Positions 3,524-42,446 of a stretch of DNA of 64,000 nucleotides are shown piece by piece (within the stretch, counting starts at the first letter, position 1; every line of letters begins with the position of its first letter). The notes under the pieces are model-generated. The model worked only from the letters and a program-made list of their open reading frames with translations, was not told the DNA's origin and ran no database searches. This DNA comes from Escherichia phage L27. Made by a program: the position numbers and the translations under genes. The DNA lies in sequence record LC473039.1; one strand, 5' to 3'.

Positions 3524-4720
3524 ATGAACAAAGTACAGATTATTAAAAAGAATGGCTCACTCGAAGAACCTGATATCAAAAAAGTTTTAGTAGCAGTCAC
3601 AAAGTCAGCTAATAGGGTTGGGTATAAAGAACTCCCACCAGACGTTACCCAAGCTCTTGAGTCAGCATTTATGAGGATTCTGGTAAAGTCCACTAAGCAG
3701 AATAATTTGCTAATTTCTGTAAATGATATTCACAGTATTGTTGAGGGTGCTTTGGCAGAAGTCAATCACGAGATTTATGAGTCTTACTCAACATATAGAA
3801 ATTACCGTAAAGAAGTTGCTCAAAATTGGGATGAACTCTACCAGAAGACCAAAGATACACTCTTCTTAGGTGACAGAGAGAATGCTAACTTTGACAGCAG
3901 TTTAATTTCTACAAAAGGTTCAATTATTCGTGGTTATCTGACTAAAGAAATCTTTAAACAGTACCATTTAACACCAGAGGAACTTGAAGCCATTGAAAAA
4001 GGGTTTATCTATATCCATGATTTAAGAGACCTAATTTTTGGTGGTATCAACTGTTGCCTGTTTGACATTGGTAAAGTCCTGAAAGGTGGCTTTGAAATGT
4101 CTGGCATCGAATATTGTGAACCAAAGTCTGTGCTGTCGGCCTTACAGGTTATTGGTGACGTAGTTCTTTCAGCAACTGCACAGCAATTTGGTGGCTTTAC
4201 TTTAGCAGAGATTGATAAGGTACTTGTACCGTATGCTAAGAAGTCTCTACGCTATCATGCTGAGAAAGCAGCATCTTATGGTATTCCTAAAGAACATTAC
4301 CACAATTATGTCATGGAGCAGCTACAGATTGAACTGACTCAAGGTTTCCAGTCACTTGAAATGAAACTAAATACTGTACCTTGCAGTCGTGGGGATTTTG
4401 CATTCACAACTTTAACATTTGGTTTACTTGACTCAGATATGTCTAATGAAGATAACCGACTACAATACATGATTGCAAGTACTCTCCTAGATGTTCGTAT
4501 GAATGGACAAGGTAAGAGCAAGAAGCCTGTTGTATTCCCTAAACTGGTTTATATTTATGACCAGAAGAGACACGATGAGAATATCTGTCAAGGACACCTG
4601 TACAGTAAAGCCATTGAGTGTTGCTCTAAAGCAATGTATCCAGATTTCTTAAGTGTATCTGGTCATGGTGCTGTAGCAGAAGCTTTTGAGCGTTCTGGCA
4701 AGGTAATCTCGCCGATGGGT
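3524..4720 (+). CDS. nrdD: anaerobic ribonucleotide reductase NrdD, exon 1 (ATP-cone + N-terminal catalytic region; ends ...ISPMG)
   Basis: ATP-cone-like N-terminus; ORF terminates at TAA immediately after ...SPMG, while conserved continuation CRAFLSP is found in frame at 5037. Confidence 0.8.
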
Positions 4721-5036
4721 TAACAGGCTCTATAGCTCATCTAAAACGTGCCTAAACAGGGAAACTCTACAGATGTAGACAATCCTGTGCTAAATGATGT
4801 ACGATGTAAGAAACTATACAACATAGGAGTCTTACATGCCAAATAACTTCGAATACGAGTTTGAATACATCTAAATGCCGAACGACTAACCGTGATGAAT
4901 GTAGCGGTGTAGGGTCAAGCGACTCGAAATGGTACGCTACTTAGAAATAAGTAGAAGATATAGTCTGGACTTACTGGCGACAGTAAGCAGCTTGAATAAA
5001 GCGGGGTAAGCTTAGCGAACTTACCTGAACAACAAG
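4721..5036 (+). other. group I self-splicing intron interrupting nrdD (ORF-less, 316 nt)
   Basis: Exon 1 ends in T (4720), intron ends in G (5036); joining gives ...ISPMG|CRAFLSPYHNEYGEEFYVGRANIG...; internal CAGGGAAACTCTACAGATG resembles the conserved group I P3/P4 core; no ORF inside. Confidence 0.75.
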
Positions 5037-5984
5037 TGTAGAGCATTTTTATCACCATACCATAACGAATATGGTGAAGAGTTTTATGTAGGTCGTGCAA
5101 ACATTGGTGCTGTATCTTTGAACTTACCAATGATTTACCAGTATTCTAAAGAGAATGGTTTAGATTTCTGGAAAGAGCTTGATAAGTACCTAGAGATGAT
5201 TCGTAGTTTCCACAAGAAACGCTACGAAATGATTGCTAATATGCCAGCAAGTTCTAACCCTCTTGCATTCACACAAGGTGGTCTGTACAAAGGAACTAAA
5301 AAATCCACCGACAAGGTTGGTTGGGATATCTTGAAGTCCTTCACAGCTTCTTTTGGGGTTACTGCGCTTGATGAGTTATCTGTTCTTACTGAGGGTAAAC
5401 GACTTCATGAAGTTGGAAGCTCTAGTTTTGCATACGATGTTCTGGCATACATTAACATGAAAACTGAAGAGTTTAAGAATGAGGATGGCTTCTTGTATGC
5501 GGTATATGGTACTCCAGCAGAGTCATTGTGTGGAACTCAGCTAAAACAGTTCAGAGATATGTTTGGTGTTATCAAAGGCGTTTCTGACAAGGAATACTTT
5601 ACAAACAGTTTCCATATGAATGTTGCAGCAAACATCTCACCATTTGAGAAGCAGGACTTAGAAGAACCATTCTTCCATATCTGTAGAGGTGGCAGAATCC
5701 AGTATGTAAGGGTAGCTAACCCAGAAAACTTAACAGCACTTAAAAGTTGTATTACAAGAGGGATGTTGAAGGGTTTCTATCAGGGGCTTAACTTTGACTT
5801 AGCAATCTGTGAACATTGTGGTAACAGACCAAAGGCTGACGTTGAAGAATGTGAGGTTTGCCATTCACATGATATCTCTGTGATTAACAGGGTGTGTGGG
5901 TACTTGTCATTCACAAAAATTAAAGGCCAGTCTCGAATGAATGACGCTAAGATGGCAGAAATTAAGGATAGAGTTTCTATGTAA
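5037..5984 (+). CDS. nrdD: anaerobic ribonucleotide reductase NrdD, exon 2 (glycyl-radical domain)
   Basis: In-frame open from 5016; C-terminal glycyl radical motif RVCGYL and Zn ribbon CEHCGN...CEVCHS. Confidence 0.8.
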   Translation, partial: CRAFLSPYHNEYGEEFYVGRANIGAVSLNLPMIYQYSKENGLDFWKELDKYLEMIRSFHKKRYEMIANMPASSNPLAFTQGGLYKGTKKSTDKVGWDILKSFTASFGVTALDELSVLTEGKRLHEVGSSSFAYDVLAYINMKTEEFKNEDGFLYAVYGTPAESLCGTQLKQFRDMFGVIKGVSDKEYFTNSFHMNVAANISPFEKQDLEEPFFHICRGGRIQYVRVANPENLTALKSCITRGMLKGFYQGLNFDLAICEHCGNRPKADVEECEVCHSHDISVINRVCGYLSFTKIKGQSRMNDAKMAEIKDRVSM

Positions 5985-8034: not shown

Positions 8035-8355
8035 ATGAGCAAAGTTTATAACACTCGCAAATTACAGATTTTCGTACTGTGCCAGTTTATGGCTAAAGAG
8101 TACAACTTCTACTATTGTGGTACAGGTTTTATTAGCGATGATGATGGCTCATACCTACCATTTAAAGAGGCTGTGAAGCTCTTTAATGAAGAGAAAAGCT
8201 CTAAGAAAGATATTGAAAAGGTTAAGCTAACTTACAGCAAGAAAGATAAGAAGATTATCTGCCTAGATAACTTTGTAAAAGTTACTGGAGAAGCAAAAGA
8301 GTTTATGGATGAGAGTGAGATTTCATTCACAAGCATCTTGAAAGTAGCTGAGTAA
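8035..8355 (+). CDS. hypothetical protein
   Basis: 106 aa ORF followed by terminator hairpin. Confidence 0.5.
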   Translation: MSKVYNTRKLQIFVLCQFMAKEYNFYYCGTGFISDDDGSYLPFKEAVKLFNEEKSSKKDIEKVKLTYSKKDKKIICLDNFVKVTGEAKEFMDESEISFTSILKVAE

Positions 8356-14210: not shown

Positions 14211-15320
14211 ATGACTACTAAAACTAAAGCACAGATTGACGCAGAAATTTACAAACTGGTTAAAGAAGGTAAGCTGACTAAAACAGCTATTGCACAGAAA
14301 TTTAACACCTCAACCCGTTCAGTCGGTCGTGCTGTAGAGCGTCATGAAGCAACCTTAAAAGGTAAGAAAAAGGCAACTTCTACACCAGCTACGAAGACTT
14401 TGAAACAAGTTGCTAAGACCTTTAAAAAGAAAGCTAACAAGCCAGTTAAAAAGGCTGTTAACGAGGATGTACAGAAAGCTCCGGTAAATAAACTGCATGA
14501 AGCTATGCAGAATGGCAACCAGATTGAGTACATGATTACTGGCGACTCTGTTATCATGACTTTCGGTGCAGATTCTGAAATCGTTGAATCTACCCATCCG
14601 AACTACAAAGAAATCGTGATGGCTGTTGTATCTGGTGAGTATAAGAAAGCTTTCGAACTGATGAACATTCGTAAGTCTATCGAAAACTTCACTCAGGGTG
14701 CTATCACCATCAAAGGTGACAAGTTATTCTACGGTGCTGTTGAGATGCGTTCTACTCTGGTTGACCGTATTCTTCACATGATGAAGACTGGAGATAAAGG
14801 TTTTGAACGACTTGTGATGTTCTTCGAAAAACCGATGGAAAACCCATCTAAAGACTCTGTAGAACAACTTTGGGGCTTCGTATCCCACCTTGATGTTGAA
14901 ATCGACGAAGAAGGTTACATCATTGGTTGGAAGAAAGTATCTACTCGTGAAGGCAAGTTGGTTGATTCTCATACCTACAGAGTACCCAATGATTTAGGTA
15001 ACGTTGTAGAAATGCCACGTTGGATGGTTGATAATAACCGTAACGTGACTTGCTCTCAAGGTCTTCACGTTGGTGCTTGGGATTATGTTCGTTACTTCTC
15101 AGGTGATACAATTCTGAAGGTTCGTGTCCATCCACGAGATGTTGTATCTGTTCCAACTGATTACAACGATATGAAGATGCGTTCGTCTCGTTATGAAGTT
15201 GCAGCAATCGTTGATAACCAACGTAAAGTGCTGAAAGAATGGGATGGCAAGACTGAAGCTTTGCATGTCATCGTTGGCACTGCTGGAGAACTTATCTCCC
15301 AACGTAAACGTGAAATCTAA
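14211..15320 (+). CDS. rIIB: rIIB-like protein
   Basis: Assigned by size and position immediately after rIIA; no motif recognised with certainty. Confidence 0.55.
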   Translation: MTTKTKAQIDAEIYKLVKEGKLTKTAIAQKFNTSTRSVGRAVERHEATLKGKKKATSTPATKTLKQVAKTFKKKANKPVKKAVNEDVQKAPVNKLHEAMQNGNQIEYMITGDSVIMTFGADSEIVESTHPNYKEIVMAVVSGEYKKAFELMNIRKSIENFTQGAITIKGDKLFYGAVEMRSTLVDRILHMMKTGDKGFERLVMFFEKPMENPSKDSVEQLWGFVSHLDVEIDEEGYIIGWKKVSTREGKLVDSHTYRVPNDLGNVVEMPRWMVDNNRNVTCSQGLHVGAWDYVRYFSGDTILKVRVHPRDVVSVPTDYNDMKMRSSRYEVAAIVDNQRKVLKEWDGKTEALHVIVGTAGELISQRKREI

Positions 15321-34238: not shown

Positions 34239-34480
34239 AGATAATCCTCTTGTCTTCTGTAATTTTGAAAGAACAGGTACAGACCAATTTCAGAGGACGA
34301 ATAGTAGATTAATTCTACCCTTTTTGATTCCTTACAGTGATTGGTATTCTTACCTTTCTTCGGTTTATTTGATTTTCTCATTAAGTCTCCTTTGTAGAAC
34401 AAGGCAGACCTACAGCTTTAAGTAAGATGGTACAGTAATCCATACAACAAGTCAAGAACTATTGCAAGTTAAAAAAGTTG

Positions 34481-34521
34481 TTGACAAAGCACTTGACAAG
34501 GTATAGGCTTATAAATACTTA
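34481..34521 (+). promoter_or_regulatory. divergent promoter region; tandem TTGACA boxes for plus-strand transcription
   Basis: AAAAAAGTTGTTGACAAAGCACTTGACAAGGTATAGGCTTATAAATACTT; downstream inverted repeat AGATATC-N6-GATATCT at ~34563-34582. Confidence 0.45.
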
Positions 34522-34630
34522 GAAGATAACTTAAAAGGTTCCTCTAAAAAGGCTATTTAAACAGATATCTTTCTGGATATCTATCTTTTATCTTAAAAGC
34601 CTTTTAAGAGGTCTTATAAGAGGCATACCA

Positions 34631-35002
34631 ATGAAAAACAGAACAAACAAAGGCCAGTTTAAAAAAGGCCAGTCTGGAAACCCATCTGGAAGACCAAAAG
34701 GCTCTCGTAACAAAAGCTCACTCGTAAAAGCTCAACTGACCATTGATAATTCTGCTGAGTTCGCTGCAAAGCTGTTTGAGGCGATTGTTACAAGGGACGC
34801 TGCTAAGCTTGCAGAGTTCGGTTTGACGACTGACGATGTAAACCTGAAGTCGATGATGGAAGCTGGTAAAACTATCATGACCCACTCAGCAGGTGAGATG
34901 AAAGCGATTGCAGCAGACACTAAGAAGACCCCTGATAATGGTGGTCAACAACAGACAGATAACAAACCAACGTTCTCTGCTGTAGCGACTCTCAAAAAAT
35001 AA
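34631..35002 (+). CDS. hypothetical protein with basic N-terminal GNPSGRPKG motif
   Basis: 123 aa ORF; RBS AAGAGG. Confidence 0.5.
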   Translation: MKNRTNKGQFKKGQSGNPSGRPKGSRNKSSLVKAQLTIDNSAEFAAKLFEAIVTRDAAKLAEFGLTTDDVNLKSMMEAGKTIMTHSAGEMKAIAADTKKTPDNGGQQQTDNKPTFSAVATLKK

Positions 35003-35014
35003 TTTTAAAAGGTG

Positions 35015-35044
35015 TTGACAGACTCTACAAAGTTGCTCTAAAGT
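35015..35044 (+). promoter_or_regulatory. sigma70-like promoter (TTGACA-N17-nTAAAG) embedded in 9-bp inverted repeat TGACAGACT/AGTCTGTCA
   Basis: GGTGTTGACAGACTCTACAAAGTTGCTCTAAAGTCTGTCAC. Confidence 0.45.
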
Positions 35045-35082
35045 CTGTCACATCAAACAACAATGAGAGAAGAGAGTAAAAT

Positions 35083-36498
35083 ATGAGCGAGTTATTTAAA
35101 CATGCGCACCTTCATGCAGGTCGAACTGAAAATGGTGCTGTAAACCATACTTCATCAATGTCTGCTCTGGTAGACTTCTACAAAGCCGCTGGCTCAAGCC
35201 GTAGCAATGTAGAAATCTTACCAGACCTGTTCTACAAAGCTTTGCGTGAGGATGTTGATGTTGCAGTTCGTATTTTACTGCATATGCGAGATGTACGAGA
35301 AGGTATGGGTGAGCGTAAAGCTTTCCGAACTGTTTTACTTCAAGCGATTGAAGATAAGGTTTTAGAACCTACACAGGTTCTTCGCATTATGGATAAGATT
35401 GCAGAACTTGGTCGTTTTGATGACTTCAAAATCTTCGTAGGTACTCGTTTCGAGACAGATGCCTTCAAACATTTAGAAGCAGCATTACTAGACCCTGCAA
35501 CAGCAGGTTTAGCAGCTAAGTGGTTGCCACGAGTAAAACCACGCCACAAACAGTTTGTAAAACGTTTCTGTAAGTTTGCAAACTTAAGCGAGAAGGAGTA
35601 TCGCACACTGCTATCTGCACTGTCTGATACGGTTGAGCAAAAAATCTCTGCTAATGAGTTTGGTAAGATTGACTACAGCAAGATTCCTTCACTCGCTGCT
35701 GCACGTTACCAAAAGCTCTTTAACCGTAAAGATGGAGAGCGTTACAAAGCTTACATCGAATCATTATCAAAGGGTGAGGTTAAGATTAATGCTGGTGCTG
35801 TTTACCCATATGATGTGATTAAATCTATTAAGTATGGTAATGCAGATGTTGCTAATGAGCAGTGGAAAGCACTTCCAAACTGGATGGCAGAAGGTGAAAA
35901 CATCTTGTGTATGACTGATGTTTCAAGCTCAATGTCTTGGGTGAATCTTGGTTCAATCACTGCCCTTGATATTGGTGTATCACTTGCCTTGTATGTAGCA
36001 GAACGCAATACAGGTTGCTTTAAAGATGAGTTAATGGTCTATTCAACAAACCCTCATTTCATTGAACTGAGTGGTGATTTACGAAACCGTCATCGTCAGG
36101 TAATGCGTCATGTTGAATATGGTTCAACTAACTTACAAGCAGCTTTTGACCGTATTCTTGAGGTAGGTAAGAGAAACAACTTGACTCAGAAAGATATGCC
36201 AAGTAAGCTTATTATCTTCTCTGATATGGAGTTTAATCAGGTTGATGGTGCAAATGGTCGTACAAACTTTGAAGCAATTCAGAGTAAGTACAAAAAAGCT
36301 GGATACGAAATGCCACAACTAGTATTCTGGTACTTAGCAAACCGTAATGGTACTTGCGAAGTATCTGTTAAGGATAATGGTGTAGCAATGGTATCAGGGT
36401 TCTCTCCAGCCACTTTAAAAGCTCTGCTTGGTGGTGAGAAGTTTGACCCAATCAGTGTAATGCTCAAAGCGGTAATGATTGACCGTTATATCTGGTAA
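35083..36498 (+). CDS. von Willebrand factor A (vWA) domain protein with MIDAS motif; N-terminal domain of unknown family
   Basis: MIDAS D-x-S-x-S in MTDVSSSMSW, downstream TNLQAAFD and IIFSDMEFN; 471 aa. Confidence 0.55.
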   Translation: MSELFKHAHLHAGRTENGAVNHTSSMSALVDFYKAAGSSRSNVEILPDLFYKALREDVDVAVRILLHMRDVREGMGERKAFRTVLLQAIEDKVLEPTQVLRIMDKIAELGRFDDFKIFVGTRFETDAFKHLEAALLDPATAGLAAKWLPRVKPRHKQFVKRFCKFANLSEKEYRTLLSALSDTVEQKISANEFGKIDYSKIPSLAAARYQKLFNRKDGERYKAYIESLSKGEVKINAGAVYPYDVIKSIKYGNADVANEQWKALPNWMAEGENILCMTDVSSSMSWVNLGSITALDIGVSLALYVAERNTGCFKDELMVYSTNPHFIELSGDLRNRHRQVMRHVEYGSTNLQAAFDRILEVGKRNNLTQKDMPSKLIIFSDMEFNQVDGANGRTNFEAIQSKYKKAGYEMPQLVFWYLANRNGTCEVSVKDNGVAMVSGFSPATLKALLGGEKFDPISVMLKAVMIDRYIW

Positions 36499-36516
36499 AA
36501 AGTTTTAAAAAGGGTA

Positions 36517-36545
36517 TTGACAATGTGTTTGATACCCTTTAATAT
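36517..36545 (+). promoter_or_regulatory. sigma70-like promoter (TTGACA-N17-TAATAT) upstream of tRNA cluster, flanked by inverted repeat AGGGTAT/ATACCCT
   Basis: AAAAAGGGTATTGACAATGTGTTTGATACCCTTTAATATG. Confidence 0.55.
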
Positions 36546-36607
36546 GTTCTACATAGAAACGAAACGAGAGCTTTTCTAAGATACTGAAAAATATTTTAAA
36601 AAAGTTC

Positions 36608-36636
36608 TTGACAATCACTAAAAAATAATGTTAAAG
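36608..36636 (+). promoter_or_regulatory. sigma70-like promoter (TTGACA-N17-TTAAAG) immediately upstream of first tRNA
   Basis: AAAGTTCTTGACAATCACTAAAAAATAATGTTAAAGTGG. Confidence 0.5.
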
Positions 36637-36663
36637 TGGTTACATAGAGTTTGAAAAGTTTAT

Positions 36664-36740
36664 CTCTGTTTAGCTCAGCTTGGTAGAGCGTTCCGTTTGG
36701 GGCGGTAAGGCCGGAGGTTCAAGTCCTCCAACAGAGACCA
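36664..36740 (+). tRNA. tRNA-Pro (anticodon TGG)
   Basis: Manual fold: acceptor CTCTGTT/AACAGAG, D-arm GCTC/GAGC, T-arm GGAGG-TTCAAGT-CCTCC, CCA encoded. Confidence 0.75.
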
Positions 36741-36747
36741 AATTAAT

Positions 36748-36825
36748 GTTCCAGTAGACAAAATGGTATAGTCACCACTCTTTCAAAGTGGATATTTGAG
36801 GGTTCAAATCCCTTCTGGAACGCCA
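36748..36825 (+). tRNA. tRNA-Glu (anticodon TTC)
   Basis: Acceptor GTTCCAG/CTGGAAC, anticodon arm CCACT-CTTTCAA-AGTGG, T-loop TTCAAAT, CCA. Confidence 0.75.
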
Positions 36826-36916
36826 GTTTTGACAGAAGACCAATTACAGCAAACTTAATCTTATTCATCTGAAGGTAAATCGGACAAAGAAGAGACTTGG
36901 TCTGGTCATTAAGAAT

Positions 36917-36993
36917 TGCGGGTATAGAGAAAGGGCGTCTCACATGTCTCATTAGCATGGTATCGGCAGGTTCGACTCCTGCACCCGCCTCCA
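36917..36993 (+). tRNA. tRNA with CAT anticodon (Met / fMet / Ile-lysidine)
   Basis: Anticodon arm CATGT-CTCATTA-GCATG, T-arm GCAGG-TTCGACT-CCTGC; possible 1:72 mismatch; CCA. Confidence 0.65.
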
Positions 36994-37077
36994 AATTTAC
37001 AGAAGACCGTTTACAGCAAAATTGAATGAAATTTTTAGCGGAAAAATTGAAAGATACGGTCTGGTAATACTAAACAT

Positions 37078-37151
37078 GGTTAGGAAGCACATAAGGTATG
37101 TGCGGTCGCCTGTTAAGCGAATGGCACAGGGTTCGAATCCCTGACTAACCG
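37078..37151 (+). tRNA. tRNA-Asn (anticodon GTT)
   Basis: D-arm GCAC/GTGC, anticodon loop CTGTTAA, T-arm CAGGG-TTCGAAT-CCCTG. Confidence 0.7.
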
Positions 37152-37163
37152 CAAAATTTAAAT

Positions 37164-37251
37164 GTGTCGTTATCCCGTAGATGGTAGCGGTGGGGACTGT
37201 AAATCCCTTGTCATTGAGACTCGGTAGGTTCGACTCCTACACGGCACACCA
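37164..37251 (+). tRNA. tRNA-Tyr (anticodon GTA), long variable arm
   Basis: Acceptor GTGTCGT/ACGGCAC, anticodon loop CTGTAAA, T-arm GTAGG-TTCGACT-CCTAC, CCA. Confidence 0.75.
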
Positions 37252-37273
37252 ACACTTAGCGAGATACTTAGTT

Positions 37274-37702
37274 ATGAGAGATGAAGTATACAAATCACAA
37301 CTTGGTATGAGTTTGGGAACTGCACAAAACAGACTAGTAAAAGATTTGCTATTCGATTTTATATGTAAGACAAATCAAAATAGATGTTTTCAGTGCGGAA
37401 AAGAAATGACTAGGGATGATTTCTCTATCGAGCATAAGATTCCGTGGAGACATAGTGAGAATGCAAAAGAGCTTTTCTTTTCACTAGATAATATTTCTTA
37501 TAGTCATCTTAAATGTAACATGAAAGCAGCAAGACCAGCACAGATAAGTGAAAGAAAACATAAAACAATTAAACACGGAACTGCGTATAGTTATTTTAAA
37601 GGCTGTAGATGCGATGAGTGTAGGTTGGCTAAGAATGCTGAGAGTAGAAGAAACTATAGTCCAGAAAGACGTAGGAAGAAGTATCTAAGAAATGGCACAT
37701 GA
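37274..37702 (+). CDS. HNH homing endonuclease (tRNA-cluster embedded)
   Basis: HNH core SIEHKIPW...SHLKCN; C-terminal YFKGCRCDECR; ORF-track start 37181 overlaps tRNA-Tyr, ATG 37274 used. Confidence 0.7.
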   Translation: MRDEVYKSQLGMSLGTAQNRLVKDLLFDFICKTNQNRCFQCGKEMTRDDFSIEHKIPWRHSENAKELFFSLDNISYSHLKCNMKAARPAQISERKHKTIKHGTAYSYFKGCRCDECRLAKNAESRRNYSPERRRKKYLRNGT

Positions 37703-37705
37703 ATT

Positions 37706-37781
37706 TGGGGTATTAGTTTAGACGGGTAAAATACGGGATTGTCTCTCCTGAGCCGCGAGTTCGATTCTCGCATACCTCGCC
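37706..37781 (+). tRNA. tRNA, anticodon GTC (Asp) or TGT (Thr) depending on fold
   Basis: Acceptor GGGGTAT/ATACCTC, T-arm GCGAG-TTCGATT-CTCGC, CCA; anticodon loop ambiguous. Confidence 0.6.
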
Positions 37782-38212
37782 AATTTTGAGAGGGCTATTT
37801 AGCCCCTCCCTTAAAGGGTTCTTACGAGTATCTTTTAAAGGAGCAGAAGACCAAATACAGCAAGAACGTATGAAAATTTCAAGCCAATTTAATTTTGAAA
37901 AATTTAAAACTTGGTCTGGCTCAACAAATTTACAGAAGACCGTTTACAGCAAAACTTAAACAATCTATTTCTCGGTAAAGAAAAGGCGAAGGTTCGATTC
38001 CTTCACTCGGCAGATGTCGAGTTGGTGTAATGGTAGCACTTAAGATGATAAACAACGGTCTGGTAATTATCTTTGTAGATAAGTTATTAAGCTTACCTGT
38101 GAGTATGCGACCACAAAGGGTGAAAGGGTAAATTCTAGATTTAAACCCAACAAGGCACATCGCTACAGACCTTAAGCAAGTCTGGGTAGCTTATCTACAA
38201 AGATAATTTAAT

Positions 38213-38288
38213 GGAAGTGTAGCAGAATGGTGATGCGGTAGACTTTTAATCTGACAGGCGATGGGTTCGAATCCCTCCACTTCTACCA
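38213..38288 (+). tRNA. tRNA-Lys (anticodon TTT), atypical T-stem
   Basis: Acceptor GGAAGTG/CACTTCT, anticodon loop CTTTTAA, T-loop TTCGAAT, CCA. Confidence 0.55.
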
Positions 38289-38292
38289 AAAT

Positions 38293-38369
38293 GGTTCAGT
38301 CGCAGATAAGGTAATGCAAGGGTCTCATAAGCCCTATGAATGTGGGTTCGATTCCCATCTGAACCTCCA
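38293..38369 (+). tRNA. second tRNA with CAT anticodon (Met/Ile2)
   Basis: Acceptor GGTTCAG/CTGAACC, anticodon arm AGGGT-CTCATAA-GCCCT, T-loop TTCGATT, CCA. Confidence 0.7.
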
Positions 38370-38377
38370 ATTTATAG

Positions 38378-38872
38378 GTGATACTTATGATTTGTGCCAA
38401 CAAAGATTGCAGAAATGAAGCCGTTAAAGGTGGAAAATTTTGCTCACGCTCTTGTTCTGCAAAAGTGAACAACAAGAAACACCCAAAGAGAAGTCAGGAA
38501 GGCTCTTGCCATTCATGCGGAAAGGTAACGCCAAAAGCGAGAAAATACTGTGACGAATGTATTGCAGGTGGAGTCATGAAAAAACATAAGACCCATCATG
38601 AAAAAAGCAAAGCCAAATCACTGCACGTTAAAAAGTCTCGTGACAGACTGAAGAAGGCTTTAGTTGATTACAAGGGTGGTTGTTGTTCAATTTGTGGTTA
38701 CAATAGGTGCATAAAGGCTCTAGAGTTTCACCACTTAGACCCTAAGACAAAAGACTTCACAGTAAGTAAAAAACACTACTCACTGGCTACAATGCAGTCT
38801 GAAGTTGATAAGTGTGTCTTGCTTTGTGCAAATTGCCACAGAGAAGTACACGAAGGGGTAACAATGCTGTGA
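38378..38872 (+). CDS. HNH homing endonuclease (zinc-binding)
   Basis: Multiple CxxC pairs and HNH motif EFHHLDPKTKD...CANCHREVH; RBS AGGTGA. Confidence 0.7.
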   Translation: MILMICANKDCRNEAVKGGKFCSRSCSAKVNNKKHPKRSQEGSCHSCGKVTPKARKYCDECIAGGVMKKHKTHHEKSKAKSLHVKKSRDRLKKALVDYKGGCCSICGYNRCIKALEFHHLDPKTKDFTVSKKHYSLATMQSEVDKCVLLCANCHREVHEGVTML

Positions 38873-38941
38873 AAGCACATATGGATGTGCATTCGGCTGA
38901 TAACCGAAAGGCAGAAGGTTCAAATCCTTCTCACAGTACCA
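38866..38941 (+). tRNA. tRNA-Ile (anticodon GAT)
   Basis: Start overlaps HNH stop codon; D-arm GCAC/GTGC, anticodon arm TTCGG-CTGATAA-CCGAA, T-arm GAAGG-TTCAAAT-CCTTC, CCA. Confidence 0.75.
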
Positions 38942-38956
38942 ATTTCAATAAAGTTG

Positions 38957-38985
38957 TTGACATTGAGATGTGACTACTTTATAGT
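38957..38985 (+). promoter_or_regulatory. strong sigma70 consensus promoter (TTGACA-N17-TATAGT) inside tRNA cluster
   Basis: GTTGTTGACATTGAGATGTGACTACTTTATAGTAACC; ~200-nt untranslated leader before next tRNA. Confidence 0.6.
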
Positions 38986-39189
38986 AACCTTAGTTTTCGT
39001 TGCGTAGCGTCTATTTTGCAAATTTAAAATAAATGCAAACGACAATGTTTTTCTGGCAGTAGCTTGATAGGCTAAACACCAGTGAGGTCTTCCAATCCCT
39101 CATCAAAGAATTTGGCGTACTCGCCCACGGTATGATTAATAAGGTGGGCATCTTTAAGGGCTTTCTAAGAGAGTCTTTAAAGATAATTA

Positions 39190-39271
39190 CGGGGCGTATC
39201 TCAGCGGTCTTCTAAACCGCCGTTAACCGAGTAAGTGGAGTATGCGGGTTCGAGTCCTGCCGCCTCGACCA
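39190..39271 (+). tRNA. atypical tRNA-like gene (possible tRNA-Arg, anticodon TCT; D-arm not resolvable)
   Basis: Good acceptor CGGGGCG/CGCCTCG, T-arm GCGGG-TTCGAGT-CCTGC and CCA; perfect stem-loop GCGGT-CTTCTAA-ACCGC but spacing non-canonical. Confidence 0.4.
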
Positions 39272-39414
39272 ATTTAGTTAGCAGATTACTTAGACGACCT
39301 AAGCGGGTCTTCCTGTAGGGAGGTGGTCTGTATCTCATGTTTTCCAGAACATGTAAATAATCTGAGAAGGGGCTTTACAGTGTTGAGATAATACGGTAAG
39401 CTTCGAATTATAGT

Positions 39415-39497
39415 ATGGGACGATGTTAAGACTCTAAGGCATGAGCAACGGCTTCCAACACCGTTTCAAAGGGGTTCAACTCCTCCGTCCCATGCCA
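39415..39497 (+). tRNA. tRNA-Trp (anticodon CCA) candidate with enlarged D region
   Basis: Acceptor ATGGGAC/GTCCCAT perfect, anticodon region ACGG-CTTCCAACA-CCGT resembles Trp arm, T-loop TTCAACT, CCA. Confidence 0.5.
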
Positions 39498-39510
39498 AAG
39501 TCTTATTAGG

Positions 39511-39600
39511 GGTAGGTAGCGGCTAATGGTAGCCAAACAGTCTTGAAAACTGTTGCCACTGTAGAGATACGGTGAGGGTTCGACTCCTTTACTTACCGCC
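39511..39600 (+). tRNA. tRNA-Ser (anticodon TGA), long variable arm
   Basis: Anticodon arm ACAGT-CTTGAAA-ACTGT, variable arm ~20 nt, T-loop TTCGACT. Confidence 0.7.
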
Positions 39601-39854
39601 TAATAAGATTTTACACCGTCCATGCTTGCTCGCATTTTCGGTTTATCCCTCGTGTATTGTCGTACACTGATAAAGCACCTAGTAGGTGTCACGGAGAAGA
39701 GATAATATCAAGCTCTCCAAAGGTTCTAGTCACCGGATTAAACAAGACTATGCAAAGACCAAATTAGGTCTTTTTAGAGGGCTTCTAAGGTTATTACAGC
39801 TTGTTGTGGAACCTTGTTGCTTAGGTTCTTAGAAGTTCTCTAAAAAGATTTAAT

Positions 39855-39932
39855 GGGAGATTGACGGTAATTGGTAAACCTATCTCGCTTAGAACGAGAT
39901 GTTTGAGGGTTCGAATCCCTTGTCTCCTACCA
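39855..39932 (+). tRNA. tRNA with anticodon TAG (Leu) but short variable arm
   Basis: Anticodon arm TCTCG-CTTAGAA-CGAGA, T-arm GAGGG-TTCGAAT-CCCTT, CCA. Confidence 0.55.
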
Positions 39933-39939
39933 AATTAAT

Positions 39940-40015
39940 GCAGGTGTAGCAAAATGGTTATGCGGCTGACTCTTAATCAGTAAGACGATGGGTTCAATTC
40001 CCTCCACCTGTACCA
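39940..40015 (+). tRNA. tRNA-Lys (anticodon CTT), atypical T-stem shared with Lys-TTT
   Basis: Acceptor GCAGGTG/CACCTGT, anticodon arm GCTGA-CTCTTAA-TCAGT, CCA. Confidence 0.55.
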
Positions 40016-40021
40016 GACATT

Positions 40022-40097
40022 GGGGATGTAGTTTACATGGTTAAAACATAAGTTTTGCAAACTTAAGTACAGGGTTCAATTCCCTGCTTCTCCACCA
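40022..40097 (+). tRNA. tRNA-Ala (anticodon TGC)
   Basis: D-arm GTTT/AAAC, anticodon arm TAAGT-TTTGCAA-ACTTA, T-arm CAGGG-TTCAATT-CCCTG, CCA. Confidence 0.65.
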
Positions 40098-40103
40098 ATT
40101 AGT

Positions 40104-40178
40104 GCATCCATAGTTTAAACGGGAAAATTGCAGTCTTCCAAACTGAGGTTGAGGGTTCGATTCCCTCTGGATGCTCCA
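40104..40178 (+). tRNA. tRNA-Gly (anticodon TCC)
   Basis: Acceptor GCATCCA/TGGATGC, anticodon loop CTTCCAA, T-arm GAGGG-TTCGATT-CCCTC, CCA. Confidence 0.7.
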
Positions 40179-40184
40179 AATAAA

Positions 40185-40261
40185 GCTGCTTTCGTATAAT
40201 TGGCTATTACACATCCCTTGTAAGGATGGAAATGCAGGTTCGAGTCCTGTGAGCAGCACCA
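40185..40261 (+). tRNA. tRNA-Thr (anticodon TGT)
   Basis: Anticodon arm CATCC-CTTGTAA-GGATG, T-loop TTCGAGT, CCA. Confidence 0.75.
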
Positions 40262-40356
40262 ATTCAGAGGTCAAGTGAAAGACCGCTGGTGTCAACTGAA
40301 GACCGTAACAAATTCCACGGAGTTGAGTTAGCGGCACAACTTCAGACCTCTTTCAC

Positions 40357-40431
40357 ACTCGCTTAGTTTATATGGTAAAACATCACCCTTACAAGATGAA
40401 GAAAAAGGTTCAAGTCCTTTAGTGAGTACCA
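40357..40431 (+). tRNA. tRNA-Val (anticodon TAC)
   Basis: D-arm GTTT/AAAC, anticodon loop CTTACAA, T-arm AAAGG-TTCAAGT-CCTTT, CCA. Confidence 0.65.
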
Positions 40432-40432
40432 T

Positions 40433-40510
40433 GTTCCAGTATCCCAATTGGCAGAGGATGCAAGCTCAAACCTTGTATTAGTGACGGTTCGAATCCGTCT
40501 TGGAACACCA
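40433..40510 (+). tRNA. tRNA with anticodon CAA (Leu) but short variable arm
   Basis: Acceptor GTTCCAG/TTGGAAC, anticodon arm GCAAG-CTCAAAC-CTTGT, T-arm GACGG-TTCGAAT-CCGTC, CCA. Confidence 0.55.
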
Positions 40511-40529
40511 ATTTTAAGAGGCTATTTAG

Positions 40530-41087
40530 ATGAGATATTTGAAGTATGCTTCATGGATTTTCCTAGCTTTACTAGAGCCATTTGCAGCAACCCTAGCAGT
40601 CATCTTAGCACCTTTCGTAGTCCCATTCTACAGTGAGAAGAAAGGGCATCTACCTTTTGGATTCAGATGGATGGAGACCTATGACAACCCGATTGATGGT
40701 GATGAAGGCCACGTTAAAAGATGGGCTAAGATTAGAAAGATTGGTAAGCTGGGTGTCTACATGCAGAGAGTTGGGTGGCTCTGGAGAAACAAAGCTTATA
40801 ACTTCTCTTACCATGTATTAGGAAGAGATGTAAAAGATGTTACTAAGTGGAAAGGTAATATCAACGTAAGTTCTAACCCTGAAGATAATCAAACAGGTTA
40901 TCTCCTAATGTGGAACAGAAATGCTTGGGGTTTATTTGCTTTTATCCCATCAATTAAAGTCTTTGGTAAACAGTTTTACTGGAGAATTTATATTGGATGG
41001 AAACTAAAAAGTGTTGTCCCAGAAGAAAGAGCATTCTCAAGGGAAAGAGTTATGTTGGCATTCTTTATTCATCCACTGAGAAAGTAA
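40530..41087 (+). CDS. hypothetical membrane protein encoded inside the tRNA cluster
   Basis: 185 aa, N-terminal TM helix, Trp/Arg-rich; no overlap with tRNAs. Confidence 0.45.
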   Translation: MRYLKYASWIFLALLEPFAATLAVILAPFVVPFYSEKKGHLPFGFRWMETYDNPIDGDEGHVKRWAKIRKIGKLGVYMQRVGWLWRNKAYNFSYHVLGRDVKDVTKWKGNINVSSNPEDNQTGYLLMWNRNAWGLFAFIPSIKVFGKQFYWRIYIGWKLKSVVPEERAFSRERVMLAFFIHPLRK

Positions 41088-41095
41088 AGATTTAA

Positions 41096-41171
41096 AGGGG
41101 ATTAGTTTACAAGGTTAAAACCTCGGTCTTTGAAATCGAAGAAGTTGGTTCAATTCCAACATCCCCCGCCA
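41096..41171 (+). tRNA. tRNA-Gln (anticodon TTG)
   Basis: D-arm GTTT/AAAC, anticodon arm TCGGT-CTTTGAA-ATCGA, T-arm GTTGG-TTCAATT-CCAAC, CCA. Confidence 0.65.
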
Positions 41172-41173
41172 AT

Positions 41174-41252
41174 GCTCCATTACTCCAATTGGCAGAGAGG
41201 CCAGACTTAAAATCTGTGTTATGTATCGGTTCGAATCCGATATGGAGTACCA
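41174..41252 (+). tRNA. tRNA with anticodon TAA (Leu), short variable arm
   Basis: Acceptor GCTCCAT/ATGGAGT, anticodon loop CTTAAAA, T-arm ATCGG-TTCGAAT-CCGAT, CCA. Confidence 0.55.
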
Positions 41253-41257
41253 AATTT

Positions 41258-41333
41258 AGCGGTATAGCATAACTGGCAATGCAGCAGTCTCTGAAGCTGT
41301 CCTATTAAGGTTCAAATCCTTATGCCGCTGCCA
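41258..41333 (+). tRNA. tRNA-Gln (anticodon CTG)
   Basis: D-arm GCAT/ATGC, anticodon loop CTCTGAA, T-arm TAAGG-TTCAAAT-CCTTA, CCA. Confidence 0.65.
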
Positions 41334-41364
41334 CTTCTAAGGGTTCTTACGAGAGTCCTTAAAT

Positions 41365-41440
41365 GTGGCCTTATCATAAATGGTAATGACCCATGCTGTG
41401 AACATGGTCTATACGGGTTCAAATCCCGTAGGTCACCCCA
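41365..41440 (+). tRNA. tRNA-His (anticodon GTG)
   Basis: Anticodon arm CCATG-CTGTGAA-CATGG, T-arm ACGGG-TTCAAAT-CCCGT, CCA. Confidence 0.75.
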
Positions 41441-41445
41441 ATTTA

Positions 41446-41521
41446 TAGTCCAAGTAGCTTATATGGTAAAGCGCGTGTCTGAAAAACATGAGAAGAGGGT
41501 TCAAATCCCACTGGACTACCA
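41446..41521 (+). tRNA. tRNA-Phe (anticodon GAA)
   Basis: D-arm GCTT/AAGC, anticodon arm CGTGT-CTGAAAA-ACATG, T-loop TTCAAAT; acceptor pairing imperfect in manual fold. Confidence 0.6.
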
Positions 41522-41537
41522 ATTTCAAAGGTGCTTA

Positions 41538-42272
41538 ATGAAAGAGATGACAGAACAAGGTAAGGAGATTTTTAATCTCTTAAAAACCGGTAAAGGGTTT
41601 TCTAACCCACTTATTACTGGTGCAGCAGTTCTCGGTGGAACCGTAGCTGCCTCTACATCACTTGTAAACTCTATTAGTTCTGTAACAGACCCTACAATGA
41701 AGGATAAACTTGTTGCTGCTGGACTTACAACAGTCCTTCTAAACAGCTTTACAACAAGCCTTACAAGCACTACAGCAACTACTAAGACCCTAACAGACTA
41801 CGGTCAAAAGTCTATTGATGAGTTTTCATCACGTATGCAGGTAGCAAAGGGATACTCCAATGTTATGGGTGCAGCAGGAGAACAAGTTGGTTGTACACCA
41901 TTCAGTGGTATTATGGGTGTTGCTACAGAGTATGGTCAAAAAGCTATTGACACGATTAACAGTACACTGGATAGTGTTAATGATGTGTTAAGTGACTTAC
42001 AAGATGCTATTGATAAGGGTCTTGATACTGTTTCTGATTTAGCTAACCAAGCTGTAAGTAAAATTAATGAAGGTATTTCAAAGATTACAGCTTATGCAGA
42101 TGAAGTTGTGCAGATGATTGAAGAAGAAGCTGCACTTATTGCAGAGTACCTTAAAACGAATATCAATGGGTTCTTAGCAGGTATCTTACCAGACTGGTTT
42201 GATGATGCTTGCAAAACTGGTGTAATTGACACTATTGCAACACCAGAAATGAAGAACGCATTACAGAAATAA
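41538..42272 (+). CDS. hypothetical Ser/Thr-rich protein (possible virion-associated)
   Basis: ATG 41538; ORF-track start 41322 overlaps four tRNAs and is rejected. Confidence 0.5.
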   Translation: MKEMTEQGKEIFNLLKTGKGFSNPLITGAAVLGGTVAASTSLVNSISSVTDPTMKDKLVAAGLTTVLLNSFTTSLTSTTATTKTLTDYGQKSIDEFSSRMQVAKGYSNVMGAAGEQVGCTPFSGIMGVATEYGQKAIDTINSTLDSVNDVLSDLQDAIDKGLDTVSDLANQAVSKINEGISKITAYADEVVQMIEEEAALIAEYLKTNINGFLAGILPDWFDDACKTGVIDTIATPEMKNALQK

Positions 42273-42273
42273 T

Positions 42274-42366
42274 GGAAGATTAACCCTAAAAGGTAAGGGA
42301 GCAGTTTGCTAAACTGCCAGTAGCTGAGAAATCGGTGTACCAGTTCAAGTCTGGTATCTTCCTCCA
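42274..42366 (+). tRNA. tRNA-Ser (anticodon GCT), long variable arm
   Basis: Acceptor GGAAGAT/ATCTTCC perfect, anticodon arm GCAGT-TTGCTAA-ACTGC, T-arm ACCAG-TTCAAGT-CTGGT, CCA. Confidence 0.75.
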
Positions 42367-42370
42367 ATTT

Positions 42371-42446
42371 GAATCCGTGACAGAAATGGCTATGTGCCTG
42401 TCTGCAAAACAGGTTTATAAGGGTTCGAGTCCCTTCGGATTCTCCA
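42371..42446 (+). tRNA. tRNA-Cys (anticodon GCA)
   Basis: Acceptor GAATCCG/CGGATTC perfect, anticodon arm CCTGT-CTGCAAA-ACAGG, T-arm AAGGG-TTCGAGT-CCCTT, CCA. Confidence 0.75.

What the first reader, a model, noticed from the sequence alone, without database searches (positions are those of the whole stretch)
35083..36498. vWA/MIDAS-domain protein directly upstream of the tRNA cluster
A 471-aa protein with a C-terminal vWA domain carrying an intact MIDAS motif (DVSSSMS). The domain layout is reminiscent of Ro60/TROVE-family or DUF-type phage vWA proteins, some of which bind structured ncRNAs encoded nearby; here the gene sits immediately before the tRNA promoters. The TROVE assignment is speculative.
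Basis: inference. Interest (0 to 1): 0.5.

Follow-up and report, generated by a model that had tools for sequence, protein, structure and literature searches.

The report
Phage Ro60-like protein with partner RNAs
The gene encodes a ring-shaped Ro60-like RNA-binding protein already reported (in a near-identical phage) to defeat a bacterial defence system, and next to it, hidden in the tRNA gene array, I found a previously unannotated family of small RNAs, one a tRNA mimic, that look like its partner 'Y RNAs'.

The parts
35015..35044 (+). Sigma-70-like promoter consensus (TTGACA-18-TAAAGT) upstream of the gene
   Evidence: 10 of 12 matches. Consensus match only, not shown to function.
35083..36498 (+). 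Ro60-like protein gene, 471 aa (DUF2828 + DUF7788; phrog_850); ortholog of Bas63 gp130
   Evidence: 98% identical (461/471) to bas63_0130.
35083..35880 (+). N-terminal all-helical domain (about aa 1-266), Ro60 HEAT-repeat-like by fold and DUF2828 by sequence
35890..36495 (+). C-terminal vWA domain with complete MIDAS (D279-x-S281-x-S283 at 35917-35931; T349 at 36127-36129; D381 at 36223-36225)
   Evidence: Homologous to the Ro60 vWA domain by hhalign (probability 92.4%, E 5.3e-7).
36509..36545 (+). 12-bp hairpin directly after the stop codon, carrying the -35 of a promoter-like site (TTGACA-17-TAATAT)
   Evidence: Klebsiella phage FBKp34 has the same arrangement.
36608..36637 (+). Second promoter-like site (TTGACA-18-TAAAGT, with TG) just before tRNA-Pro
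36664..42446 (+). tRNA array: 24 ARAGORN tRNAs plus one found only by Rfam at 39190-39268, interrupted by HNH endonuclease ORFs
36834..36912 (+). Short CAGCAA-box RNA module M1 (stem AGACCAA/UUGGUCU, box UACAGCAA), starting about 10 nt after tRNA-Glu
   Evidence: Sequence. Model R1, trained on unrelated loci, gives E 3.5e-4.
37001..37066 (+). Short module M2 (stem AGACCGU/ACGGUCU, box UACAGCAA), after tRNA-Met
   Evidence: R1 E 5e-6.
37845..37921 (+). Short module M3 (stem AGACCAA/UUGGUCU, box UACAGCAA)
   Evidence: R1 E 8e-4.
37934..38068 (+). Long module M4, YrlA-like. Terminal stem AGACCGUU (37937-37944) / AACGGUCU (38054-38061); box UACAGCAA (37945-37952); V hairpin; T arm 37988-38004 (GAAGG-UUCGAUU-CCUUC); closed acceptor-like hairpin 38005-38022 (7 bp); D arm 38024-38040 (loop with GG)
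   Evidence: MFE fold -33.2 kcal/mol, z -2.2, four stem-loops closed by the terminal stem. Element parse. Orphan T-arm signature outside any called tRNA. R1 (a short-form model) matches only the 5' part (E 0.23).

Best explanation
The gene encodes a phage Ro60-like protein: an alpha-helical repeat domain followed by a vWA/MIDAS domain, predicted to adopt the Ro60 ring architecture. It belongs to the DUF2828/DUF7788 family (phrog_850), which is found in at least 709 phage genome records. Shown by others for the 98%-identical Bas63 gp130: it neutralises the single-gene Ppl defence (ATPase + PHP domain), and it does so alone when moved into T7 or expressed from a plasmid. Inferred here: its usual working form is a ribonucleoprotein with phage-encoded Y-like RNAs. 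These are small RNAs whose 5' and 3' ends pair into a 7-10-bp stem. The stem is followed on the 5' side by a conserved single-stranded box, U(A/U)CAGCAA, which I propose is the protein-binding module. It takes the place of the GNCGAA/GGUCCGA motif of canonical Y RNAs. A variable insert acts as the effector module, and in the long form it is a circularly permuted tRNA mimic, as in bacterial YrlA. In this phage, four such RNAs (M1-M4) lie in the first 1.6 kb of the tRNA array. They would be transcribed with the tRNAs from the promoter-like sites just after the gene and released by tRNA-processing nucleases. By analogy with Ro60/Y RNA/PNPase complexes and the Thermus phage Ro60, the particle would capture or redirect host RNA-decay or tRNA-recognising factors. 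That would protect phage RNAs and blunt defences that act through RNA.

For: RNA: (modules with shared termini and covarying stems in the window and in Klebsiella, Cronobacter, Vibrio, Aeromonas, Campylobacter, Sinorhizobium, Enterococcus and Staphylococcus phages). (120 stemmed motif sites on the gene strand against 41 on the opposite strand and 4-20 for scrambled motifs). (72 against 4 modules within 1 kb of the gene; bimodal sizes). (model trained on IMG/VR loci finds window M1-M3 at E 5e-6 to 8e-4; 77 hits at E <= 0.01 in 51 of 80 family loci, all on the gene strand; 34 of 63 non-training loci). (in 42 family loci with no tRNA within about 8 kb, 23 have a gene-strand module within 1 kb, against 3 on the opposite strand). 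(mycobacteriophage LeBron: gene, then three modules including a tRNA-like one, then a terminator, with no tRNA in the locus). (the long forms share V/T/acceptor-hairpin/D elements with compensatory stem changes, and these helices were not used for detection). (0 hits in 40 canonical TROVE loci). (none in the T4 or T5 tRNA regions). Architecture matches YrlA as described in PMC4201824 and bioRxiv 10.1101/312249.
Against: No binding data exist. gp130 alone rescues T7 on a Ppl host, so at least that activity needs no phage RNA partner. Starting from the RNA motif, most significant modules lie flush between tRNAs in arrays where no family gene is detectable in the 5-15-kb stretch held. Only 2 of 16 positive stretches held the gene, plus one more from a contig known to carry it. 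So the RNA may be primarily a tRNA-array element. About a third of family loci show no module. The box differs from the canonical Ro-binding motif, and the N-terminal domain has no detectable sequence homology to TROVE. The analogy therefore rests on fold and architecture. The TROVE control set is largely high-GC, and the model was trained on AT-rich sequences. The Ppl result comes from a preprint.
Confidence: 0.55

Rival explanations
1. The CAGCAA-box modules are components of phage tRNA arrays (processing punctuation, stable by-products or tRNA-derived passengers). They have no functional tie to the protein, and the gene and the modules are neighbours only because both tend to sit in tRNA arrays.
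For: Modules recovered from the motif alone sit flush (0-5 nt) between tRNAs, in the tRNA orientation, in arrays where no family gene is found in the stretch. 20 of 120 detected modules start within 30 nt of a tRNA 3' end. The flanking protein genes are unrelated.
Against: 23 of 42 family loci without any tRNA within about 8 kb still have a gene-strand module within 1 kb. LeBron and Staphylococcus phage SEP9 have modules directly after the gene with no adjacent tRNA. Module density falls about 8-fold beyond 1 kb from the gene. The T4 and T5 tRNA regions and 40 TROVE loci, which sit in tRNA-rich regions in at least one case, have none. The stretches lacking the gene cover only part of their genomes.
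Confidence: 0.2
2. The protein works without RNA. It is a vWA/MIDAS protein-binding inhibitor that directly sequesters or blocks the Ppl effector (or another host protein), and its Ro60-like fold is an evolutionary relic.
For: gp130 alone, from a plasmid or inserted into T7, restores plaquing on a Ppl host. The MIDAS is invariant across the family, and MIDAS sites typically mediate protein-ligand contacts (established knowledge of vWA domains). No conserved protein partner is encoded nearby.
Against: The whole two-domain Ro60 architecture is conserved, not just the vWA domain. There is a tight, strand-specific association with a structured RNA family across phages of Proteobacteria, Firmicutes and Actinobacteria. 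Host RNAs could substitute in the T7 experiment.
Confidence: 0.15
3. The modules are cis-acting regulatory elements of the gene's own mRNA, for example autoregulatory operator mimics in the 5' or 3' UTR, rather than free-standing RNAs.
For: In several loci a single short module lies 35-90 nt upstream of the start codon (L040, L053, L066, L073, L078). In Vibrio phage ValKK3 the box is 29 nt before the ATG. In Campylobacter and Listeria phages modules sit just upstream of the gene.
Against: In this window all four modules are 0.3-1.6 kb downstream, beyond two promoter-like sites, and interleaved with tRNAs. There are multiple tandem copies, tRNA-like domains, and copies several kb from the gene or in arrays without it.
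Confidence: 0.07
4. The protein is a virion or assembly component, such as a vWA cochaperone or structural protein.
For: One relative is annotated 'putative structural protein' (Erwinia phage pEa_SNUABM_12). vWA proteins serve as assembly cochaperones in some phages (PMC7824862).
Against: The fold matches Ro60 over both domains. The gene lies in the early, non-structural region among tRNAs, behind a sigma-70-like promoter. Bas63 gp130 is dispensable on hosts without the defence system and conditionally needed on Ppl.
Confidence: 0.03

Closest known systems
Bas63 (Escherichia phage JohannRWettstein, MZ501086) gp130, reported in the PhageMaP preprint, bioRxiv 10.1101/2024.10.10.617714
   Same: 98% identical protein (461/471) with identical synteny: DUF5681 gene upstream, tRNA-Pro downstream. 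Reported as structurally similar to Ro60, located directly upstream of the tRNAs, and as a counter to the Ppl defence that can be transferred to T7.
   Different: [quoted passage not shown] The candidates found here are not annotated tRNAs but unannotated spacer elements. In Bas63 they lie at L006:14070-14143, 14237-14301, 14692-14766 and from 14779, partly under two small opposite-strand ORF calls.
Ro60/Rsr (TROVE + vWA_Ro60) with Y RNAs, including bacterial YrlA/YrlB (Chen et al. 2014, PMC4201824; Wang et al. 2018, bioRxiv 10.1101/312249) and Thermus phage phiLo Ro60 with Yrl1/Yrl2 (PMC12135203)
   Same: Two-domain fold (helical repeats plus vWA/MIDAS). Small RNAs encoded within a few kb on the same strand. 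RNA ends paired into a stem with a conserved motif on the 5' side. A long form whose effector module is a circularly permuted tRNA mimic (T arm, closed acceptor hairpin, D arm), plus shorter forms without it. In at least one case (Streptomyces phage Gilson) the phage TROVE-type gene also lies in a tRNA array.
   Different: The N-terminal domain has no detectable sequence similarity to TROVE. The protein is shorter (471 aa against about 500-540). The conserved RNA box is U(A/U)CAGCAA rather than GNCGAA(N)G/GGUCCGA. The modules are often embedded flush in tRNA arrays. The host range is wider (Gram-negative and Gram-positive phages, whereas the TROVE type is mostly in actinophages). The RNA model gives no hit in 40 TROVE loci.
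Mycobacteriophage cluster-L 'Ro-like RNA binding protein' (e.g. LeBron gp53)
   Same: Same protein family (31% identity, E 8e-60, DUF2828 + DUF7788), already annotated as Ro-like. It is followed by three CAGCAA-box modules, one of them tRNA-like.
   Different: No tRNA array nearby. Box variants ACAGCAAU/GCAGCAAU in a high-GC context. I could not establish whether these RNAs were among the 22 phage YrlA candidates of Chen et al. 2014, because the supplement is not held.
Stable RNAs of unknown function in the T4 (rnaC, rnaD) and T5 (RNAI, RNAIII, RNA1, RNA2 and others) tRNA clusters
   Same: Small stable RNAs, some tRNA-like, interleaved with phage tRNAs.
   Different: They lack the CAGCAA box and give no match to model R1. 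No family gene is annotated in the regions examined.

Membership tests
DUF2828/DUF7788 phage family (PHROG 850) | Significant match to Pfam PF11443 and PF25043 and to phrog_850 over the full length | tested here: met
   PF25043 at 148.9 bits (cut-off 27.1), PF11443 at 100.7 bits (cut-off 29). phrog_850 E 1.7e-183, residues 1-471.
Ro60/TROVE proteins | TROVE domain (PF05731) detectable by sequence profile | tested here: not met
   No PF05731 hit at E <= 10 for the N-terminal 270 aa, nor in 5 divergent members. hhalign against a 16-sequence TROVE alignment aligns no N-terminal columns. The PDB profile search gives Ro60 only at E about 1.
Ro60/TROVE proteins | Helical-repeat domain followed by a vWA domain with the Ro60 three-dimensional architecture | tested here: met
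Ro60/TROVE proteins | vWA domain with MIDAS (DxSxS...T...D), homologous to the Ro60 vWA | tested here: met
   D279, S281, S283, T349 and D381 are invariant. hhalign probability 92.4%, E 5.3e-7 over 122 columns including the MIDAS positions.
Ro60/TROVE proteins | Binds Y RNA on the outer ring surface and misfolded RNA 3' ends in the cavity | not testable with these tools
   Needs biochemistry or a structure of the complex.
Ro60/Y RNA systems | Candidate Y RNA encoded within about 4 kb of the protein gene on the same strand | tested here: met
   Window M1-M4 lie 0.34-1.57 kb downstream on the same strand. All 77 model hits in 80 family loci are on the gene strand. 72 modules lie within 1 kb against 4 on the opposite strand.
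YrlA-class Y RNAs | 5' and 3' ends pair; internal circularly permuted tRNA-like domain in the order (V) - T arm - closed acceptor stem-loop - D arm | tested here: met
   M4 fold. Of 11 long modules from independent phages, 9 have fully paired T stems (8 different sequences), all 11 parse with a 5-8-bp acceptor hairpin (the L043 assignment is doubtful), and 9 have a GG-containing D loop. This matches the YrlA description.
YrlA-class Y RNAs | GNCGAA(N0-1)G motif near the 5' end (proposed Ro-binding site) | tested here: not met
   The 5' region carries AGACCGUU-UACAGCAA instead. The only GGCGAAG string in M4 overlaps the T stem. The family consensus box is U(A/U)CAGCAA.
YrlA-class Y RNAs | Bound by the Ro60 ortholog; modified by tRNA enzymes (TruB, DusA) | not testable with these tools
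   Requires immunoprecipitation and modification mapping.
Rfam families (release 15) | Match of the modules to any curated RNA family | tested here: not met
   No hit overlaps 36834-36912, 37001-37066, 37845-37921 or 37934-38068 at gathering thresholds or at E <= 5.
Anti-defence proteins (Ppl counter) | Relieves Ppl-mediated restriction | not tested
   Experimental result exists for the 98%-identical Bas63 gp130 but was not tested for this sequence. No PADLOC match, as expected for a phage gene.

The most novel reading that the evidence does not exclude
The U(A/U)CAGCAA-box RNAs are the cognate Y-like RNAs of a second Ro60-like protein lineage (DUF2828) that is spread across hundreds of phages of Gram-negative, Gram-positive and actinobacterial hosts. 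On this reading, phages package these RNAs into their tRNA operons so that host tRNA-processing enzymes mature them. The resulting ribonucleoprotein, with a tRNA-mimic or other effector module, then hijacks or decoys host RNA-decay or tRNA-targeting factors as a general counter-defence, of which Ppl evasion is one read-out.
Probability: 0.4. Interest if true: 0.75.

Novelty: new variant of a known kind. Interest (0 to 1): 0.55.

Why it matters
At the protein level the finding is already in the literature, so on its own it is ordinary. The added value is a concrete, testable set of candidate RNA partners. The PhageMaP authors could only guess that 'some tRNA genes' might be Y RNAs. Here the candidates are mapped to the nucleotide in this phage and in Bas63, a genetically tractable BASEL phage with a gp130 deletion phenotype. 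If the RNAs bind the protein, this would define a second Ro60/Y-RNA-type system with a different recognition box. It would extend Y-RNA biology to many well-studied phage groups (FelixO1-like, and relatives infecting Listeria, Staphylococcus, Enterococcus, Campylobacter and Vibrio). It would also explain unannotated 'spacers' in phage tRNA arrays. And it would give a handle on how an RNA-binding ring can defeat a defence system predicted to act through a PHP-domain phosphoesterase. The model also offers an annotation tool: these elements are currently unannotated, or covered by spurious small ORFs.

Tried and rejected
1. Sequence-level TROVE membership. Pfam on the N-terminal 270 aa, a PDB profile search and hhalign against a TROVE alignment all failed for the helical domain. 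Only the vWA domain is demonstrably homologous.
2. Rfam. No Y_RNA or other family at the modules.
3. The GNCGAA motif in M4. It is present only as part of the T stem, so I judged it coincidental.
4. T4 rnaC/rnaD and the T5 stable RNAs as members of the family. No model hit and no box.
5. A conserved protein partner. RtcB, Rnl2, the CCA-adding enzyme, a macro domain, DUF458, a phosphoesterase and the upstream DUF5681 gene are each found in 0-5 of 75 diverse loci. ORFs next to gene-less modules are unrelated.
6. A MAFFT alignment of heterogeneous short modules (A2) and of long modules (A3) misaligned the 3' arms and acceptor hairpins. I therefore used length-matched short modules for the model (A4) and per-sequence parsing for the long form.
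7. Covariation counts on A4 are strong but partly circular, because the sequences were chosen for having a stem. I relied on hold-out searches, strand asymmetry and scrambled-motif controls instead.
8. The reverse test (motif to gene) did not show exclusivity. It is inconclusive because only parts of the contigs are held.
9. The Chen et al. 2014 supplement, which would show whether LeBron-type phages were in their list, is not held.
10. AGAAGACC in the window modules is the exact complement of GGTCTTCT in the anticodon arm of the tRNA-Arg-like gene. I judged this to be chance, since the string reflects the family's AAAGR consensus.

Full report
**Observation.** The window is part of a Felixounavirus (FelixO1-like) genome. 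Region 34400-36700 is 98.4% identical to Salmonella phages BPS17L1 and UAB_Phi87, and about 250 phage records carry it. The ORF at 35083-36498 (+) is real: ATG start, 471 aa. The string DVSSSMS is at residues 279-285. Together with T349 and D381 it forms a complete MIDAS motif, and all five positions are invariant in a 45-member family alignment. ARAGORN finds 24 tRNA genes on the same strand from 36664 to 42446, so the first tRNA starts 165 nt after the stop codon. That gap holds two sigma-70-like consensus sites, the first embedded in a 12-bp hairpin. These are consensus matches only, because promoter-like sites are not enriched over shuffles in this region.

**Limits of the Ro60 assignment.** By sequence the relationship is much weaker. 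The N-terminal 270 aa hit only DUF2828, with no TROVE hit even at E <= 10, and five divergent members behave the same way. A profile-profile comparison with 16 canonical phage TROVE proteins aligns only the vWA domain (probability 92.4%, E 5.3e-7, 122 columns including the MIDAS positions). So the protein works like, and is shaped like, Ro60. It shares a homologous vWA domain. But it is not a member of the TROVE sequence family.

**Context across the family.** The gene lies inside or beside tRNA arrays in Klebsiella phage FBKp34, Enterococcus phage VRE9_2, Listeria phage LMSP-25, Cronobacter phage S13 and Campylobacter phage F365. Among 80 IMG/VR loci, 38 have a tRNA within about 8 kb and 24 have one within 1 kb. 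RNA-repair genes (RtcB, Rnl2, the CCA-adding enzyme, a macro domain) are only sporadic neighbours, and no protein-coding neighbour is conserved.

**A new RNA family.** Reading the spacers of this window's array and of the relatives revealed a repeated module. It has four parts: a 5' strand of 7-10 nt, the box U(A/U)CAGCAA, a variable insert, and a 3' strand complementary to the first strand, usually followed by G.

The window has four modules:

| Module | Coordinates | Form |
|---|---|---|
| M1 | 36834-36912 | short |
| M2 | 37001-37066 | short |
| M3 | 37845-37921 | short |
| M4 | 37934-38068 | long, tRNA-like |

The stem sequences differ between modules and between phages but stay complementary. 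Examples are AGACCGU/ACGGUCU, AGAAUCAU/AUGAUUCU, AGGGUAUU/AAUACCCU, CAAGCGGCU/AGCCGCUUG and AGGAUGC/GCAUCCU.

M4 folds into a terminal stem that closes a junction of four stem-loops: V, a T arm (GAAGG-UUCGAUU-CCUUC), a closed 7-bp acceptor-like hairpin, and a D arm with a GG loop (MFE -33.2 kcal/mol, z -2.2). This is the architecture described for bacterial YrlA Y RNAs: a Ro-binding module at the paired ends, and an effector module that is a circularly permuted tRNA mimic. Its T-arm signature is one of only three in the window that lie outside ARAGORN's tRNA calls.

I parsed eleven long modules from independent phages. Nine have fully paired T stems, with 8 different sequences. All eleven parse with an acceptor hairpin of 5-8 bp of unrelated sequence, although the L043 assignment is doubtful. 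Nine have a GG-containing D loop. These helices were not used to find the modules, so their compensatory variation is independent evidence.

**Statistics.** A simple detector (box plus a flanking stem of at least 7 bp) was run on 80 family loci from IMG/VR, 75 of them only 39-47% identical to the query. It finds 120 modules on the gene strand, 41 on the opposite strand, and 4-20 for four scrambled control motifs. Seventy-two gene-strand modules lie within 1 kb of the gene, against 4 on the opposite strand. Sizes are bimodal, at 50-70 nt and 100-140 nt.

A covariance model (R1) was built from 20 short modules taken only from IMG/VR loci. Its 7-bp stem is 97.9% paired with 47 double-change cells, although those sequences had been selected for having a stem. 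I then used it on sequences it had never seen. In this window it finds M2 (E 5e-6), M1 (E 3.5e-4) and M3 (E 8e-4), and no other hit below E 0.2 in 64 kb. It also finds modules beside the gene in the Aeromonas, Staphylococcus, Campylobacter, Klebsiella, Enterococcus and Listeria phages. Every hit up to E 0.55 is on the gene strand.

Over the 80 IMG/VR loci it gives 77 hits at E <= 0.01. All are on the gene strand, in 51 loci, 34 of which are among the 63 loci not used for training. Bas63 has the same four modules.

Mycobacteriophage LeBron shows the clearest arrangement: the gene, then a short, a long tRNA-like and another short module, then an intrinsic terminator, with no tRNA in the locus.

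Controls were negative. Forty canonical TROVE loci (684 kb) give no hit at E <= 0.1. Many of these are high-GC, which disfavours the AT-rich model. The T4 and T5 tRNA regions, with their classic stable RNAs of unknown function, give none either. Rfam 15 has nothing at the module positions. The literature searches found no description of these RNAs.

**Caveats on the gene-RNA link.** Starting instead from the motif AAAGGNNNNTTACAGCAA in all viral contigs, 16 of the first 100 stretches contain significant modules. Most of these modules sit flush between tRNAs in arrays, in the tRNA orientation, and no family gene is detectable in the stretch held. Only two stretches have the gene, plus one from a contig known to carry it. 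The neighbouring ORFs are unrelated. These stretches cover only part of their genomes, so absence of the gene cannot be concluded. But the RNA is clearly at home in tRNA arrays.

Against a purely indirect link, 23 of the 42 family loci without any tRNA within about 8 kb still have a gene-strand module within 1 kb (32 modules, against 3 on the opposite strand). The data therefore show a three-way association between gene, modules and tRNA arrays.

**Mechanism.** Shown by others for the ortholog: it counters Ppl, and it does so alone. Shown here: the Ro60-like fold, the homologous MIDAS-bearing vWA domain, and a conserved, strand-specific association with a structured RNA family whose long form is a YrlA-type tRNA mimic.

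Inferred: the protein binds these RNAs through the terminal stem and the CAGCAA box, which would be the counterpart of the GNCGAA/GGUCCGA site of canonical Y RNAs. The RNAs are co-transcribed with the tRNAs and released by tRNA-processing enzymes. The particle then engages host RNA-decay or tRNA-recognising factors, as Ro60/Y RNA does with PNPase and as Thermus phage Ro60 does when it attenuates PNPase (PMC12135203). Because gp130 alone works against Ppl in T7, the RNAs are either dispensable for that particular activity, replaceable by host RNAs, or serve other functions.

I put 0.55 on the RNP model. The rivals are listed separately: the RNAs are independent tRNA-array elements (0.2), the protein is an RNA-independent inhibitor (0.15), the modules are cis-regulatory (0.07), or the protein is a structural component (0.03).

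**Verdict.** The apparently undescribed CAGCAA-box RNA family is the part worth following up. It would be a new variant of the Ro60/Y RNA theme, and it makes the published speculation directly testable.

Noticed in passing
window 4673-4987 (+): Rfam group I intron hit (53.3 bits, gathering score 50) lying between ORFs 3524-4723 and 5118-5984, which suggests an intron-split gene.
   Followed up: no
window about 39412-39500 (+): Orphan tRNA-like element. It has a 7-bp acceptor-type stem TGGGACG/CGTCCCA followed by GCCA, and a canonical T arm (GGTTCAACTCC at 39473-39483). Neither ARAGORN nor Rfam calls it, and relatives do not annotate it.
   Followed up: partly
window 39190-39268 and 36917-36993 (+): The tRNA callers disagree. 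39190-39268 is found only by Rfam (31.7 bits; tRNA-Arg in relatives). tRNA-Met 36917-36993 is found only by ARAGORN and has an odd D arm.
   Followed up: no
window 37181-37702 and 38378-38872 (+): ORFs with weak HNH endonuclease matches (just below Pfam's cut-off) are inserted inside the tRNA array. The first overlaps tRNA-Tyr if the longest ORF is taken.
   Followed up: no
window 36509-36545 (+); L002:7443-7480: A 12-bp hairpin immediately after the gene's stop codon carries the -35 hexamer of a promoter-like site. Klebsiella phage FBKp34 (52% protein identity) has the same hairpin-with-promoter arrangement after its ortholog.
   Followed up: no
L006:14749-15023 (Bas63): The annotated 'hypothetical proteins' bas63_0137 and bas63_0138, on the opposite strand, overlap modules M3 and M4. 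They are probably spurious ORF calls over RNA genes.
   Followed up: partly
L009:7896-8138 (Cronobacter phage S13): Two tRNA-like genes in normal order, 113-121 nt long, carry a roughly 45-nt insert in the anticodon arm that shares ACGCAAACTGAYAAGTTTGTATTCAGCA. They lie just before a long CAGCAA-box module at 8150-8292.
   Followed up: partly
L020, L021, L025, L028, L039 (long modules): A second recurrent insert type, CCTTTCTGGAGGGGAAAGCAAAAACTCGCC, replaces the tRNA-like domain in the long modules of several marine or metagenomic phages. Other modules have 160-180-nt inserts.
   Followed up: no
L215 (Streptomyces phage Gilson): A canonical TROVE + vWA_Ro60 gene in a phage is also embedded in a tRNA array. 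So placement of Ro60-type genes among tRNAs is shared by both protein families.
   Followed up: partly
L256 (T5 28-50 kb) and L214 (T4): The experimentally known stable RNAs of unknown function in the T5 and T4 tRNA clusters do not belong to the CAGCAA-box family. Some are tRNA-like, and they remain unexplained.
   Followed up: partly
window 34631-35002 (+): The upstream gene is a DUF5681 protein (phrog_4114) with its own strong promoter-like region. It accompanies the Ro60-like gene only in the closest relatives (1 of 75 diverse loci).
   Followed up: partly
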